A DNA stretch of 14,413 nucleotides, from IMG/VR virus record IMGVR_UViG_2663762810_000008. One strand, 5' to 3'. The DNA comes from a virus (taxonomy: Duplodnaviria > Heunggongvirae > Uroviricota > Caudoviricetes). Position 1 is the stretch's first letter; every line of letters starts with the position of its first letter. The notes beneath the pieces are model-generated. The model was not told the DNA's origin and did not search any database. It saw only the letters and a program-made list of their open reading frames with translations. The translations under genes were made by a program, and so were the position numbers. Positions 1 to 14,413 of this stretch are shown here, piece by piece.

Positions 1-319
1 TTGCCTCCCCCCCGTTGATGGGTAAAATAGCCGCAATTTTTCGTTTTCAACAAGCGCGGCGCGATGCCGCTTACTCAAGAAGAAAGAATTATGACGTTGT
101 CTCCTTATTTGCAAGAGGTGGCGAAGCGCCGCACTTTTGCCATTATTTCTCACCCCAATAATTAATCCCAAATTAAAGCTCTTTTACTCTTTCAAAATCC
201 TTTCAGTTAATTGAGGTCTGGTTATATAACTCATTTAAATACATATAGTTATGTGGCTTCTTTAATTGAAAATTCTTTCATGTAACTTTAAATCGATCAG
301 GTTGCTTTCATCAAAAATC

Positions 320-4727: not shown

Positions 4728-5345
4728 TCAGGCGGTGAAAGTACCAATAAAGGTTTCTACTTTGCTGTCTTTGAATTTCTCAACAAGCAGATCACGAAAT
4801 TCGTTAGCCATATCTTCCTGCACCGCTTCCAGCTGAATAATGCGCAGAACCAGTACAGGACGATCGCCAGTGATAATGCTGAGGCGTAATTTAAACGGAC
4901 GTTCTTTCAGACCTTCAAACGGAACGCATTTAATTTCAAATGCCACTGGCATAATGTCTTTGGTCTTCGCTTCGACAGATTCCATCAGGGAGCGTTTGCC
5001 GCTGAAGTCATTATCTTCAAAATCAGCGGTCTGGTTTGCTTCAATCGTGATTTTACGGACTGCCGCAGCTGCTTTTGTTGCCTGAATAGCGTCACCATTA
5101 GCATCAAAGCCCACAAGGTAGTCGGCCCAGTCTTCAATCCATTCTGCCAGTGACTTCTGGGAGTTACGCTCGCCGTTAACAGACAACAGGGCAGAGAACG
5201 GTGCTGTCTTTTTCAGTTTGAGAGTGGCGGTGTTATCTGCGTGACCTGGTTCATCAATAGTACCCAGGTTAAGTACACTGACGGCACGCATATTATCAGC
5301 ATCGATAAAGGTATTGTCCTGGATGAAAAAAGGACCCGGCTTCAT
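4728..5345 (-). CDS. DUF2303/YfdQ-like prophage early protein
   Basis: 205-aa ORF; resemblance to YfdQ-type proteins is from memory and uncertain. The 5' end lies antisense to the Q-homologous sequence, so the true start may be an internal Met (for example at 5291). Confidence 0.55.
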
Positions 5346-5561
5346 GGCGCGCCTGTTTATAAGATTTGTGGGCGTTGCAATGGAAACCGGTTTAGTCGTT
5401 TACCAACGACACTGGCGCGGTGTCATGTCCAGAAGCTGGTACCAGACCTGACTGATTATCAGTGGTACAAAGGATATGCAGATGTCATTGATAAACTGGT
5501 TACAAAGTGCTGGCAGGAAGAAGCATATGCTGAGGTGCAATTAAGAAAAGTGACGAGATAA
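5331..5561 (+). pseudogene. 5'-truncated lambda-type Q antiterminator remnant (C-terminal ~70 aa only)
   Basis: Translation [76 protein letters not shown] matches the remembered C-terminus of phage lambda Q (…ECGRCKGVGYSRMPASAAYRAVTMLIPNLTQPTWSRTVKPLYDALVVQCHKEESIADNILNAVTR). No in-frame start exists after the overlap with the opposite-strand gene. Confidence 0.6.
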
Positions 5562-11297: not shown

Positions 11298-11504
11298 ATG
11301 CATAAAGATCAATACACTGATGCCCCCTCCCAGGAGCAGGTTCGTGTAAAAACTATGCTTAATAGCACCATTTCGATGGGTTACCCGGATGTTGTAATTG
11401 CATGTATAGAACATCAAGTATCTCTGGAAGCATTCAGGGCAATTGAGGCCGCGTTAGTAAAGCACGATAAGAATACGAAGGATTATTCCCTGGTGGTTGA
11501 CTGA
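11298..11504 (+). CDS. Hypothetical small prophage protein, 68 aa
   Basis: ORF with ATG start and GGAG site 8 nt upstream; lies just upstream of the cos/terminase region where small conserved ORFs sit in related cryptic prophages (recollection, uncertain). Confidence 0.5.
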
Positions 11505-11849
11505 TCACCATAACTGCTAACCATTCTGACCATTTCACAAGTGACAGAGTCAATATCGTATTCTGTCACTGTCAGGCTAATACAGTACTGCAATTCAACT
11601 ACAGCAATGCCTCGTATTTAGGTGAATTTACAATATCGTCCAGTTCGGATGCCGGCTGCATTTCTGAAGATAAGGCATTTCGGTTCGCGTATTTTCCCCT
11701 CATGCTCGTCAGTCCTGCGCGTAGTAAGAAACAGGACACTCACACTAATTTGTGTGGGCATGCTGTGATGTCCTTCTGAATTATCCCCACGCCATTATGT
11801 AAAGCTCTGTTTCAGATGCTCGTCACGGTTGTCAGGCTGTCGGGTCCTC

Positions 11850-12000
11850 CCTGGGGGGGGCCCTGCCACGGGGCGGGAGCGTCGCGGAAAAAGGCTAGTT
11901 TTTGCATTTTTATCGGCCACCATCATCTTTGCATCTTATTGATTATTAATGGTTGTTTGTTTTTTGTATGTCGAATTGAGTGTTTTTTGTTCGACATCGA
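11850..12000. other. cos-like DNA packaging site (putative cosN plus cosB-like inverted elements) upstream of the small terminase
   Basis: CCACGGGGCGGGAGCGTCGCGG (about 11866-11887) resembles the lambda cosN neighbourhood (ACGGGGCGGCGACCTCGCGGG, from memory). G8 run at 11853-11860. Inverted elements ATGTCGAA (11968-11975) and TTCGACAT (11990-11997) parallel the oppositely oriented R3/R2 sites of lambda cosB. Confidence 0.4.
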
Positions 12001-12056
12001 ACGCGTTTTCTTAAAGTTGTTCGCACGATGCATGTTTAAAGCTCTCCGGAGGAAAT

Positions 12057-12548
12057 ATGGATCATGAGTTGAAAAACCTGGTGCTGAATATTAATCAACT
12101 GGCGGCTTTATCTGGTCTGCACCGCCAGACTGTCGTGGCAAGACTGAAAAACATTCGTCCCGCTGGTGGACATGACAAACTCAAGCTATACCGGTTGACC
12201 GATATTCTGACTGAATTTATGGGGTTACCACCGCCGGTTGCTGAGGGCGAAATGGATCCACATGAACGCAAAGCCTGGTATCAGTCTGAACGTGAGCGTC
12301 TTAAGTTCGAACAGGAAACGGCACAACTCATTCCGGCCAGTGATGTCAGACGGGAGTTTGCCATCTGGGCAAAAGCGGTCGTGCAGGTGCTGGAGACATT
12401 ACCGGATATTCTGGAACGTGACTGCGGCCTGCAGCCTGCCGCTGTGAGCCGTGTTCAGTCCATTATTGATGATCTGCGCGATCAGATAGCCCTGCGGGTG
12501 ACCGAAGCAGGTGCGGATGATGAGGAGGAATTACAGCAGGAGGAGTAA
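12057..12548 (+). CDS. Terminase small subunit, Nu1-like
   Basis: 163-aa ORF with N-terminal HTH-like segment (LVLNINQLAALSGLHRQTVVARLKN) and acidic C-terminus; GGAGGA ribosome-binding site; stop overlaps the large-subunit start as TAATG; located just downstream of the cos-like site. Confidence 0.8.
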   Translation: MDHELKNLVLNINQLAALSGLHRQTVVARLKNIRPAGGHDKLKLYRLTDILTEFMGLPPPVAEGEMDPHERKAWYQSERERLKFEQETAQLIPASDVRREFAIWAKAVVQVLETLPDILERDCGLQPAAVSRVQSIIDDLRDQIALRVTEAGADDEEELQQEE

Positions 12549-14170
12549 TGCTGAATCAGGAAACCGCAAAGGCAGCACGAACCGATTCAGGTTATATCCT
12601 TCGCGCACCGAGACGAATGCGGGTTGCTGATGCCGTTGCTCAGTATATGCGGGTGCCCATGGGGGCCGGGAACTCAGTCCCGTGGGATCCGCTGGTGGCA
12701 CCGTATGTTATTGAGCCGATGAACTGCCTGGCCTCGCGTGAATACGACGCAGTGATATTTGTTGGCCCGGCACGAACTGGCAAGACTATCGGCCTGATTG
12801 ACGGCTGGGTGATTTACAACGTGATTTGCGATCCTGCTGATATGCTGATCATTCAGATGACGGAGGAAAAAGCCCGCGAACACTCCAAAAAACGACTTGC
12901 CAGAACGTTTCGCGTCAGCCCGGAAGTGGTCAGTCGCCTGAGTCCGAACAAAAATGACAACAACGTTTATGACAGAACATTCCTTGCTGGCAACTACCTG
13001 AAAATCGGCTGGCCGTCAGTCAATATCATGTCCTCATCAGATTATAAATGCGTGGCGCTGACGGATTATGACCGTTTTCCGGAAGATATTGATGGCGAGG
13101 GGGATGCCTTCTCTCTTGCCTCAAAACGTACCACCACATTTATGTCCAGTGGTATGACGCTGGTGGAGAGTTCCCCCGGCAGGGATGTGAAGGATGTGAA
13201 ATGGCGACGGACTTCACCGCATGAGGCTCCACCAACCACGGGGATACTGTCGCTCTATAACCGTGGCGATCGCCGTCGCTGGTACTGGCCCTGTCCACAC
13301 TGTGGTGAGTATTTTCAGCCCTGCGGCGATGTGGTTGCTGGTTTCCGTGATATTGCCGATCCCGTGCTGGCAAGTGAGGCGGCTTATATTCAGTGTCCTT
13401 CCTGTTCAGGACGGATTATGCCTGAACAAAAACGTGAGCTGAACGGACGTGGGGTCTGGTTGCGGGATGGTGAATCCATCAATGCGGATGGCAGTCGTTA
13501 TGGTGATCCCCGACGCTCACGTATTGCGTCATTCTGGATGGAGGGTCCGGCAGCTGCTTACCAGACACTCTCGCAACTCGTTTACAAACTGCTTGCTGCA
13601 GAACAGGAATACGAGACAACCGGAAGTGAAGAAACACTCAAGACGGTTATCAATACCGACTGGGGATTACCTTATCTTCCCCGTGCCAGCATGGAGCAAC
13701 GAAAAAGTGAACTGCTTGAGCAGCGGGCAGAGCCAGTTCCTTCCCGCAGTGTGCCGGATGGCGTTAATTTCCTGGTGGCGACAGTTGATGTGCAGGCGGG
13801 ACGTCATCGCCGTTTTGTGGTTCAGGTAACGGGCTATGGCAGCCGTGGCGAACGCTGGATTATTGATCGTTACAACATCACGCAGTCATTGCGCGGTGAC
13901 AGCGACGGGGAGAGCCAGCGAATTGATCCGGCCAGCTATCCGGAAGACTGGGATGTCCTGCTGACGGATGTTTTTCATAAAAGCTGGCCGCTGGCCTCCG
14001 ATCCTTCTCAACAAATGCGACTGATGGCAATGGCGGTGGACTCCGGCGGTGAAGACGGAGTCACTGATAATGCCTATAAATTCTGGCGTCGTTGCCGTCG
14101 TGATGGCCTTGGTAAACGTATTTACCTGTTTAAGGGCGACAGCATCCGGCGCGCAAAACTGATCACCCGT
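12548..14170 (+). pseudogene. Terminase large subunit (lambda gpA family), truncated after about 541 codons
   Basis: Manual translation from the ATG at 12548 shows no stop through the window end, which is why it is absent from the ORF track. Walker A (GPARTGKT), CPHCG zinc-finger-like motif, and blocks matching remembered lambda gpA (VATVDVQ...RWIIDRYNI; AVDSGGEDG...LFKGDS). The 3' boundary is approximate (plus or minus about 15 bp). Confidence 0.75.
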
Positions 14171-14413
14171 ATACGCGTGAATGAATGGTTCAGCGCGTAT
14201 GCGATGGCGGGTGTGGCTTACAGCCGTGTGTCGACTTTCTCCGGGGATTATCTCCGCGTAACTGACAACAAGGGGAAAACGCACGATGTGCTGACCGGAA
14301 GTGATGACGGTCGCCACAGCAACACGTCTCTGGCGTGGGGGGCTGGCGTGCAGTTTAACCCGACCGAATCCGTGGCCATTGATATTGCTTATGAAGGCTC
14401 CGGCAGTGGTGAC
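14171..14413 (+). pseudogene. lom: 3' fragment of a lom/ail/ompX-family outer-membrane protein gene, fused in frame to the truncated terminase; runs off the window end
   Basis: Translation VNEWFSAYAMAGVAYSRVSTFSGDYLRVTDNKGKTHDVLTGSDDGRHSNTSLAWGAGVQFNPTESVAIDIAYEGSGSGD carries the Ail/Lom/OmpX C-terminal signature (compare OmpX GAGLQFNPMENVALDFSYEQSR). No signal peptide or N-terminal strands are present. Confidence 0.7.

What the first reader, a model, noticed from the sequence alone, without database searches (positions are those of the whole stretch)
11850..12056. cos-like packaging site with a G8 tract and inverted R-like elements
The segment upstream of the Nu1-like gene contains a cosN-like GC-rich core resembling lambda, a G8 homopolymer 10 bp upstream, and a pair of inverted 8-mers (ATGTCGAA / TTCGACAT) 14 bp apart. 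That layout parallels lambda cosB, where oppositely oriented small-terminase sites flank an IHF site. With the large terminase truncated the site cannot be cut in cis, but it could be packaged by a helper phage.
Basis: partly seen in the sequence, partly recalled or inferred. Interest (0 to 1): 0.4.

Follow-up and report, generated by a model that had tools for sequence, protein, structure and literature searches.

The report
Lambda-type cos site in decayed prophage
This is an ordinary, apparently intact lambda-type DNA-packaging (cos) site left in a badly decayed E. coli prophage, of a kind already present in sequenced phages and in about 2,200 of 5,426 complete E. coli genomes.

Summary
G8 lies at 11853-11860, the GC-rich core at 11866-11887, and ATGTCGAA/TTCGACAT at 11968-75/11990-97 with a 14-bp spacer.

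The region is a lambda-like cos site:
- cosN with inferred 12-nt end GGGCGGGAGCGT at 11871-82. It matches lambda at 8/12 positions, including the whole left half, and has CG on both flanks.
- cosB upstream of a DUF1441-type small terminase and a gpA-type large terminase.

Phage records cdtI and Tritos begin with exactly this 12-mer. From cosQ to the terS ATG the site matches the deposited phage genome PhiR40_1 apart from six spacer substitutions.

The inverted 8-mers sit where relatives have R2 and R1. The IHF-like core (11932-44) lies upstream of them, between an R3-position element (11914-28) and R2. G8 is lineage-specific.

The large terminase is truly truncated: 541 of 700 codons, fused in frame to lom. 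Q, the immunity/replication region and the head and tail genes are also gone. The site can only be used in trans. Packaging of the whole element by a helper is unlikely.

Low interest; a known kind.

The parts
11842..11848 (+). cosQ heptamer GGGTCCT (packaging-termination signal in lambda)
   Evidence: Identical to the lambda heptamer and 22 bp before the predicted nick, against 23 bp in lambda. It is the single + strand occurrence in the window. It is conserved in 61 of 63 other distinct sequences from 79 viral-contig loci and as far as Halomonadaceae loci. Feiss 2015 (PMC4669245) describes the 7-bp cosQ as highly conserved.
11853..11860 (+). G8 tract in the cosQ-cosN spacer; lineage-specific, with no evidence of function
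   Evidence: Present. Relatives have CGGTGGGGTGG, CGGTGGGGGCC or CAGTGGGGGTC with the same spacer length. The G8 allele also occurs in structurally complete prophages such as strain N51.
11866..11887 (.). cosN: CCACG|GGGCGGGAGCGT|CGCGG. The predicted staggered nicks are after 11870 (top strand) and after 11882 (bottom strand), giving a 12-nt 5' cohesive end at 11871-11882.
   Evidence: 8/12 positions match the lambda end, with 1-6 identical and differences at 7, 8, 9 and 11, and CG on both flanks. This is the pattern of natural cosN variation described in PMC4669245. Phage records cdtI AB285204 and Tritos OV696610 start with this exact 12-mer, and Tritos ends at the base before it. How those record ends were set is not documented in the papers I could read.
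11883..11913 (+). Conserved cosN-proximal spacer CGCGGAAAAAGGCTAGTTTTTGCATTTTTAT
   Evidence: About 27 bp are shared even with cdtI and Tritos, whose cosB differs and whose TerS is 42% identical. The counterpart ...GGCTAGTTTTTTGCATTTTATCGG is conserved across enterobacterial DUF1441 loci.
11914..11928 (+). R3-position element CGGCCACCATCATCT (bp 44-58 from the nick); inferred TerS site
   Evidence: It sits at the same distance from cosN as lambda R3 (CGTTTCC at bp 53). Relatives carry class-specific triplet repeats here: CATCATCAT, CACCACCAC or CAGCAGCAC. In this lineage its similarity to R2/R1 is at chance level (7-8 of 16), so the assignment rests on position only.
11932..11944 (-). IHF-like core AATCAATAAGATG (12/13 to WATCAANNNNTTR)
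   Evidence: A site this good occurs in 25% of shuffles, so support comes from position. Relatives have TTGAT-type cores at the same place and orientation, perfect in mEp460-type (TATCAATCTATTA), cdtI/Tritos (TATCAATAAATTA) and CAT-class loci. Lambda's only hit to this consensus in cosB (79-91, 12/13) is also on the minus strand, where I1 lies between R3 and R2.
11968..11975 (+).
   Evidence: TGTCGA is conserved in both E. coli TerS groups and in most enterobacterial loci, as (G)ATGTCGA or GGTGTCGA. Relatives show R2-R1 inverted pairs with their own words at the same place, for example CATGATG-24-CATCATG at bp 96 and ATGATG-21-CATCAT.
11989..12002 (+). It is itself a small palindrome, GTTCGA-CA-TCGAAC.
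   Evidence: Relatives have TGTTCATCATCATG, TTCACCAC or GTGCAGTG here, matching their own R3 words. These are direct repeats of 7-11 nt, with p of 0.016 or less in 8 of 11 CAT-class loci. In the 87%-identical TerS group the arm reads TTCATCAC, so the perfect palindrome is specific to this lineage.
12057..12548 (+). terS: DUF1441-family small terminase, 163 aa
   Evidence: Pfam PF07278, E 4.6e-44. It is 100% identical to the protein of phages PhiR40_1, PhiR47_1, PhiR55_1 and vB_EcoS-606R10, and homologous to the annotated TerS of mEp460, mEp213, Gifsy-2 and Fels-1. The predicted N-terminal topology is strand-helix-helix-strand-strand-helix, a winged HTH.
12548..14171 (+). terL' : gpA-type large terminase truncated after codon 541 of 700
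   Evidence: GpA_ATPase is complete and GpA_nuclease covers 186 of 294 profile positions. The DNA is identical to the full-length gene of strain N51 up to 14171.
14172..14413 (+). 'lom: C-terminal part of an Ail/Lom gene fused in frame to terL'
   Evidence: Pfam Ail_Lom positions 104-185. The translation matches Lom from about residue 105.

Best explanation
The segment is the complete cohesive-end site (cosQ-cosN-cosB) of a lambdoid prophage of the mEp460/Gifsy-2 type, which pairs a DUF1441 small terminase with a gpA-family large terminase. It survives in a heavily deleted prophage at the yjjG-prfC site of E. coli.

Mechanism, inferred by analogy with lambda:
1. The winged-HTH domain of TerS binds repeated R elements in cosB.
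2. IHF bending between R3 and R2 helps assemble the complex.
3. This positions TerL to nick after 11870 on the top strand and after 11882 on the bottom strand, giving 12-nt 5' ends GGGCGGGAGCGT.
4. Packaging would then proceed rightwards through terS.
5. cosQ (11842-48) acts when a translocating terminase arrives from the left, allowing termination.

In this locus the resident TerL lacks its last 159 residues. Q, the immunity/replication region and the head and tail genes are gone. The site is therefore inert unless a related phage supplies terminase in trans.

Shown: sequence identity of the subsites with lambda and with phage genomes, the gene families, and the truncations. Inferred: the nick positions, TerS and IHF binding, and any use in trans.
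For: - cosQ heptamer, spacing, CG-flanked 12-mer and an identical left half compared with lambda, matching the rules for lambda-like cos sites in PMC4669245.
- cdtI and Tritos phage records start at window base 11871, and Tritos ends at 11870.
- From cosQ to the terS ATG the window differs from the PhiR40_1 phage genome record only by 4 substitutions in the cosQ-cosN spacer and 2 in cosB spacers. cosQ, cosN, R3, the IHF-like core, R2 and R1 are all identical.
- TerS is DUF1441 and TerL is gpA ATPase plus nuclease. DUF1441 proteins are the annotated TerS of many lambdoid phages.
- A distant DUF1441-type phage, Cr-LKS3, has experimentally determined 5' cohesive ends (PMC9303873). LLS/mEp213 are inferred to have GGGCGGCGCGCT ends (PMC12315714).
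- The family-wide layout is R3, IHF-like core, inverted R2, direct R1, with class-specific words. These words track the TerS recognition helix.
- The same R3-I1-R2-R1 order is reported for lambda, 21, phi80 and Gifsy-1 (PMC9026076).
Against: - There is no physical evidence for cleavage here. The papers I could read do not say how the cdtI and Tritos record ends were set.
- In this lineage the R3-position sequence matches R2/R1 no better than chance.
- The IHF-like core has one mismatch, and a site this good arises in 25% of shuffles.
- The inverted 8-mer pair arises in 6-9% of shuffles. Its right arm is not kept in the 87%-identical TerS group.
- Self versus cross-class R matching is only modestly above background (9.5 against 8.9 and 8.6 of 16) and is confounded by phylogeny.
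- Structural similarity of TerS to gpNu1 was not significant.
Confidence: 0.85

Rival explanations
1. The cos site is a dead relic. It looks like cos, but the changes around G8 in the cosQ-cosN spacer, or other substitutions, have inactivated it, so no terminase can use it.
For: The window differs from most relatives, which have CGGTGGGGTGG, and from PhiR40_1 at four positions in this spacer. The surrounding prophage is heavily decayed.
Against: Spacer length is unchanged, and cosQ, cosN and all cosB elements are identical to PhiR40_1. The same G8 allele, 100% identical over 901 bp, is found in prophages with a full set of terminase, portal, capsid and tail genes, such as strains N51 and GPEC1222. 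The spacer varies freely among relatives.
Confidence: 0.1
2. The inverted 8-mers are a chance palindrome or an RNA/terminator hairpin upstream of terS, not terminase-binding sites.
For: Chance expectation is 6-9%. The RNA fold is -12.8 kcal/mol with z = -2.0. A weak terminator-like hairpin, TGTTCGACATCGAACG followed by CGTTTTC, was flagged at 11988-12003. The palindrome is not kept in the 87%-identical TerS group.
Against: The two arms fall exactly where relatives carry their own R2 and R1 words. TGTCGA is conserved across genera. The terminator scan found 2 sites against 0.9 +/- 0.8 expected, and the stem has only 6 pairs. No Rfam family matched. Inferred by analogy with lambda (my knowledge): the late transcript would have to read through cos to express terS and terL, so a terminator here would be counter-productive.
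Confidence: 0.12
3. The element is a helper-dependent satellite (PICI-like or cos-hitchhiking island) that has kept cos in order to be mobilised as a unit.
For: It retains an integrase (386-1609) and an intact cos, with no capsid genes. In E. coli O157 Sakai, the terminase-defective prophage Sp4 is packaged, probably by the terminase of Sp14, whose cos is identical (PMC2669165).
Against: The content is that of a deleted full prophage: lysis genes, a Q fragment, terS, a terL'-'lom fusion and truncated early genes. There is no replication module and no Rpp-type redirecting protein. Related strains carry the same prophage with different deletion end points, which indicates decay rather than design. 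About 14 kb between int and lom is far below a lambda-size headful.
Confidence: 0.05

Closest known systems
Bacteriophage lambda cos (cosQ-cosN-cosB with R3-I1-R2-R1; Feiss and colleagues)
   Same: The cosQ heptamer is identical and its spacing is 22 bp against 23 bp. The 12-nt end has an identical left half and CG flanks. cosB lies between cosN and terS, with the ATG at bp 187 against 191 in lambda. There is an R3-position element at about bp 44-58, a minus-strand IHF-like core, and then oppositely oriented R2 and R1.
   Different: The cohesive end differs at positions 7, 8, 9 and 11. The R words are unrelated to lambda's CGTTTCC. R2 and R1 are 22 bp apart centre to centre, against about 41 bp in lambda. 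TerS is DUF1441, not the Pfam Nu1 family.
cos regions of deposited phages PhiR40_1, vB_EcoS-606R10 and mEp460, and cosN of cdtI and Tritos
   Same: PhiR40_1 has an identical TerS, and identical cosQ, cosN and cosB elements. cdtI and Tritos have identical cosQ and cosN plus about 27 bp beyond, and their records start at the same base.
   Different: The window has the G8 variant of the spacer and two spacer substitutions. mEp460-type phages (TerS 86% identical) have different R3 and R1 words. cdtI and Tritos have a different cosB and a 42%-identical DUF1441 TerS.
Terminase-defective prophage Sp4 of E. coli O157 Sakai, packaged via the Sp14 terminase (PMC2669165)
   Same: It is a defective lambdoid prophage that keeps a cos identical to that of a co-resident competent prophage.
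   Different: Sp4 is a near-full-length prophage that is amplified and excised. The window's element lacks replication, Q, head and tail genes. Whether the source strain holds a helper is unknown.

Membership tests
Lambda-like cos site (as defined in PMC4669245) | [quoted passage not shown] | tested here: met
   GGGCGGGAGCGT against GGGCGGCGACCT: 8/12 match, positions 1-6 identical, differences at 7, 8, 9 and 11. This is shown at sequence level only.
Lambda-like cos site (as defined in PMC4669245) | Conserved CG dinucleotides flanking both nick positions | tested here: met
   CCACG|...|CGCGG.
Lambda-like cos site (as defined in PMC4669245) | 7-bp cosQ upstream of cosN at lambda-like spacing | tested here: met
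   GGGTCCT at 11842-48, 22 bp before the nick against 23 bp in lambda.
Lambda-like cos site (as defined in PMC4669245) | Complex cosB: three R sequences with R2 opposite to R3 and R1, and an IHF site between R3 and R2 | tested here: inconclusive
   R2 and R1 form a perfect inverted 8-mer pair. An IHF-like core (12/13) lies between the R3 position and R2. The R3-position sequence does not significantly resemble R2/R1 in this lineage. The layout is clear in relatives.
Lambda-like cos site (as defined in PMC4669245) | terS and gpA-type terL immediately downstream of cosB | tested here: met
   DUF1441 TerS at 12057-12548. GpA_ATPase and GpA_nuclease from 12548.
Lambda-like cos site (as defined in PMC4669245) | Staggered nicking by terminase that gives annealable ends in virion DNA | not testable with these tools
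   The only support is that the cdtI and Tritos records begin at this 12-mer, and the method used to set those ends is undocumented.
gpNu1 family small terminase (Pfam Phage_Nu1) | Sequence membership in the Nu1 family | tested here: not met
   Pfam gives DUF1441 (E 4.6e-44) and no Nu1 hit. hhalign against lambda Nu1 covers only residues 9-52 against 2-47, with E 0.003 and probability 10%.
gpNu1 family small terminase (Pfam Phage_Nu1) | N-terminal winged HTH followed by a helical oligomerisation region | tested here: inconclusive
   The AlphaFold model (pLDDT 76) shows a strand-helix-helix-strand-strand-helix N-terminus followed by long helices. The Foldseek top hits are MerR-type winged HTH proteins, but with E of 0.18 or more.
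PICI / cos-hijacking satellite | Compact island with int, its own replication module and a packaging-redirection gene (rpp) next to cos, and no lysis or terminase genes | tested here: not met
   The window carries lysis genes, a Q fragment, terS and terL', and no replication module. Sister strains show the same prophage with other deletions.

The most novel reading that the evidence does not exclude
The DUF1441 small-terminase family may use a modular cosB code. Short triplet-repeat R words (CAYCAYCA, GCAGCAGCA, CCACCAC) co-vary with the TerS recognition helix, from Enterobacterales to Halomonadaceae. A second natural cosQ allele (AGGTACT) may also exist. In addition, intact cos sites stranded in decayed prophages such as this one may act as chromosomal packaging-initiation points for related helper phages, moving the adjacent prfC-side DNA.
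Probability: 0.12. Interest if true: 0.4.

Novelty: new member of a known kind. Interest (0 to 1): 0.15.

Why it matters
There is little new here. Lambda-like cos sites, their natural cosN variation and complex cosB layouts are well described. This allele is already present in deposited phage genomes, and the region matches about 2,200 of 5,426 complete E. coli genomes.

Its modest value is practical:
- It fixes the likely genome ends for this common prophage type.
- It shows that DUF1441 proteins sit where terS is expected.
- It flags that a decayed prophage can keep a packaging site usable by co-resident or infecting relatives. This matters for prophage-prophage complementation and recombination.

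Tried and rejected
- A PDB sequence search with the TerS profile gave no significant hit; the best was an HTH regulator at E 0.07.
- Foldseek of the AlphaFold model gave nothing with E of 0.001 or less.
- Rfam at a permissive threshold gave only a spurious lncRNA hit far below its gathering score.
- A full-text search for the 12-mer GGGCGGGAGCGT found only unrelated eukaryotic papers.
- 'DUF1441' appears in only three phage papers, none on cos.
- Vahanian et al. 2017 (cosN natural history) is not in the held library.
- The Tritos and Ayreon papers do not document how termini were determined.
- Per-locus longest-common-substring tests and 16-mer sliding matches for R3 against R2/R1 were weak, and at chance for the window itself.
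- No sigma-70-like promoter was found in 11400-12300.
- I considered G8 as a functional element (phase variation or G-quadruplex) and rejected it because it is not conserved.
- I considered the 83-aa ORF 11816-12067 across cos as a gene and judged it probably spurious. It has no Pfam hit and spans cosQ, cosN and cosB.

Full report
**Observation.**
- G8 occupies 11853-11860 and is the only G8/C8 run in the window.
- Ten bases further on lies GGGCGGGAGCGT (11871-11882), within CCACG|GGGCGGGAGCGT|CGCGG.
- ATGTCGAA (11968-75) and TTCGACAT (11990-97) are perfect inverted 8-mers separated by 14 bp.
- The 8-mer pair alone is weak evidence. About 9% of dinucleotide shuffles of the 207-bp region, and about 6% of shuffles of the cosB segment, give an equally good inverted repeat.

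**Context.** The window is a decayed lambdoid prophage inserted between yjjG and prfC of E. coli. A sister copy in strain Z142-6 has other deletion end points. From left to right it carries:
- an integrase (386-1609);
- fragments of early genes (DUF551 proteins and an N-truncated YfdQ/DUF2303);
- only the C-terminal 85 or so residues of antiterminator Q. Window 5306 falls inside ydfT of the intact relative;
- the lysis genes and the cspI, ynfN and gnsB morons;
- the cos region, then a 163-aa DUF1441 protein (12057-12548) and a gpA-type large terminase starting at 12548.

The terminase frame stays open to the window end. It is identical to the 700-codon gene of strain N51 only up to 14171, which is codon 541. 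After that it reads as residues ~105 onward of Lom. Pfam sees GpA_ATPase complete, GpA_nuclease positions 1-186 of 294, then Ail_Lom 104-185. The truncation is therefore real. It results from a deletion that removed the portal, capsid, tail and tip genes.

**What the site is.** Comparison with lambda shows three points.
1. The cosQ heptamer GGGTCCT lies at 11842-48, 22 bp before the predicted nick (23 bp in lambda). This is its only + strand occurrence in 14.4 kb.
2. The 12-mer matches lambda's cohesive end at 8/12 positions. Positions 1-6 are identical and the differences are at 7, 8, 9 and 11. CG dinucleotides flank both nick positions.
3. CGCGG follows the 12-mer, as in lambda.

This is the pattern Feiss and colleagues describe for lambda-like phages: conserved cosQ, conserved CG flanks and left half, and a free right half (PMC4669245).

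Two phage genome records, cdtI and Tritos, begin with this same 12-mer, and Tritos ends at the base before it. The papers I could read do not say how those ends were set, so this is supportive rather than decisive.

Related evidence from the same family:
- The DUF1441-type phage Cr-LKS3 has experimentally determined lambda-like 5' cohesive ends (PMC9303873).
- LLS and mEp213, whose TerS is 62-63% identical to ours, are inferred to have GGGCGGCGCGCT ends (PMC12315714).

From cosQ to the terS ATG the window differs from the PhiR40_1 phage genome record, whose TerS is 100% identical, by only six substitutions. Four are in the cosQ-cosN spacer and two are in cosB spacers. The site looks intact.

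**G8.** The 63 other distinct sequences from 79 viral-contig loci have no G8. They carry CGGTGGGGTGG, CGGTGGGGGCC and similar at the same place, with the same spacer length. The G8 allele does occur, 100% identical over 901 bp, in prophages with complete morphogenetic gene sets. I find no support for a function.

**cosB and the inverted 8-mers.** I collected DUF1441 loci from viral contigs (80 loci) and from species-representative genomes (42 loci, from Escherichia to Halomonas and Marinobacter). A common layout appears after a conserved spacer (...GGCTAGTTTTTTGCATTTTATCGG):
- an element at bp ~45-60 from the nick, the position of lambda R3;
- a TTGAT-type IHF-like core on the minus strand;
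- an inverted element;
- a direct element just before the terS ATG.

The words differ by clade:

| Clade | R3 position | Inverted (R2) | Direct (R1) |
|---|---|---|---|
| CAT | CATCATCAT | (C)ATGATGTCGA | TGTTCATCATCATG |
| CAC | CACCACCAC | GGTGTCGA | TTCACCAC |
| CAG | GTGCAGCAGCA | GCTGCA | CGTGCAG |
| Halomonadaceae | CGGCAGCAGCACC | GGTGCCGATGGTGCCG | - |

Supporting measures:
- Direct R3-R1 repeats of 7-11 nt reach p of 0.016 or less in 8 of 11 CAT-class loci.
- R2-R1 inverted pairs recur at bp ~94-100, for example CATGATG-24-CATCATG.
- The words track the TerS recognition helix: HRQT, NRNM, HRDT, DRGT/DRRT.
- These clade-level correlations are confounded by phylogeny. A generic 16-mer self versus cross-class test is only modestly positive (9.5 against 8.9 and 8.6 of 16).

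In the window:
Its TGTCGA core is conserved across genera.
- The right arm sits at the R1 position (bp 120-127), inside a local palindrome GTTCGACATCGAAC.
- The only IHF-like core (AATCAATAAGATG, 12/13, 11932-44, minus strand) lies upstream of both arms. It lies between R2 and the R3-position element CGGCCACCATCATCT (11914-28).
- Lambda's only hit to the IHF consensus in cosB (79-91, 12/13) is also on the minus strand, where I1 lies between R3 and R2. Lambda's R3, R2 and R1 start at bp 53, 114 and 155.

So the inverted 8-mers are best read as R2/R1. These are also opposite in lambda, but they are not the pair that flanks IHF.

Caveats for this lineage:
- The R3-position sequence resembles relatives' R3 rather than its own R2/R1, at chance level.
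- The perfect palindrome is not kept in the 87%-identical TerS group, where R1 reads TTCATCAC.
- The IHF-like core alone is not significant. An equally good site arises in 25% of shuffles.

**The 'Nu1-like' gene.** It belongs to Pfam DUF1441, not the Nu1 family.
- hhalign places residues 9-52 on gpNu1 residues 2-47, the winged HTH, with E 0.003 and probability 10%.
- The AlphaFold model (pLDDT 76) has a strand-helix-helix-strand-strand-helix N-terminus followed by long helices.
- The Foldseek top hits are MerR-type winged-HTH proteins but are not significant.
- Its role as TerS rests on gene position and on annotation in many phages, including mEp460, mEp213, Gifsy-2, Fels-1 and Stx phages.

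**Use in trans.** The resident TerL is truncated, and Q and the head and tail genes are missing. The site can therefore only be acted on by a foreign terminase.
- Matching enzymes exist. TerS is identical in four deposited phage records (two marked 'complete genome', one partial) and in structurally complete prophages.
- This cos-terS region matches 2,187 of 5,426 complete E. coli genomes, at up to seven places per genome.
- Precedent: in O157 Sakai the terminase-defective Sp4 is packaged, probably by the Sp14 terminase, whose cos is identical (PMC2669165).
- Packaging of this element as a unit is unlikely. There is no replication module, and only about 14 kb lies between int and lom.
- From established lambda biology, cutting at a single chromosomal cos would start rightward packaging through terS, lom and the prfC side. 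Efficient termination needs a second cos.
- A more likely fate is recombinational rescue of the cos-terS module by incoming relatives.

**Rivals.** I considered four alternatives:
- a dead relic, disfavoured by identity of all subsites and by the same allele occurring in complete prophages;
- a chance palindrome or terminator hairpin. The RNA fold gives z = -2.0, the terminator-like hit is a weak 6-pair stem, and there is no Rfam match;
- a PICI-like satellite, where the gene content does not fit;
- a functional G8, which is not conserved.

**Verdict.** This is a correctly spotted but ordinary lambda-type cos site of a common prophage lineage. The cosB layout was partly misread and cosQ was missed. 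It is a new member of a known kind, of low interest.

Noticed in passing
L095, L096, L104, L109, L110, L111, L114, L131 (about 160-190 bp upstream of terS): At the cosQ position, and at the same distance from the nick, these loci carry AGGTACT (…AAAGGTACTCC…) instead of GGGTCCT. They come from several genera, including Scandinavium, Buttiauxella, Pantoea, Citrobacter and Kosakonia. PMC4669245 states that natural cosQ variation is not apparent.
   Followed up: no
L092-L131 cosB regions; window 11914-12002: R-position words in DUF1441 cosB are triplet-like repeats (CATCATCAT, CACCACCAC, CAGCAGCAC, CCACCAC). They differ by clade and track the TerS recognition helix (HRQT, NRNM, HRDT, DRGT/DRRT).
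   Followed up: partly
L102, L103, L107, L109, L110 (bp ~74-100 from the nick); L092 and L094 (bp ~55-85): Short perfect inverted repeats with lineage-specific sequence lie just left of R2 (TCGTGAA-4-TTCACGA, TCCTGA-6-TCAGGA, TCATTGAAA-6-TTTCAATGA). In mEp460-type loci, 10-12 bp arms bracket the IHF-like core. The window has no such repeat.
   Followed up: partly
window 14171/14172: There is an in-frame fusion of terL codon 541 to lom at about codon 105. A deletion removing all head and tail genes created it. Sister strain Z142-6 has a different deletion (terL' joined to a gene L fragment).
   Followed up: yes
window ~5241-5561 and 4728-5345: The Q antiterminator is reduced to its C-terminal ~85 residues and abuts an N-truncated YfdQ/DUF2303 gene on the opposite strand. 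A large internal deletion has removed the immunity and replication regions.
   Followed up: partly
window 11816-12067 (+): An 83-aa ORF runs across cosQ, cosN and cosB. The equivalent is annotated as a hypothetical protein in PhiR40_1. It has no Pfam hit and is probably not a gene.
   Followed up: partly
window 11945-11961 and 11975-11991: T-rich direct repeats (ATTAATGGTTGTTTGTT and ATTGAGTGTTTTTTGTT, 76% identical, 30 bp apart) each precede R2 and R1. They could be phased intrinsic bends.
   Followed up: no
L001 13698-14860 (strain N51): An IS3 element is inserted about 140 bp upstream of the region matching window 11700-12600. The prophage is otherwise structurally complete and carries the identical G8 cos allele.
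   Followed up: no
window 7-13: A C7 homopolymer lies in the host-side flank near the yjjG end.
   Followed up: no
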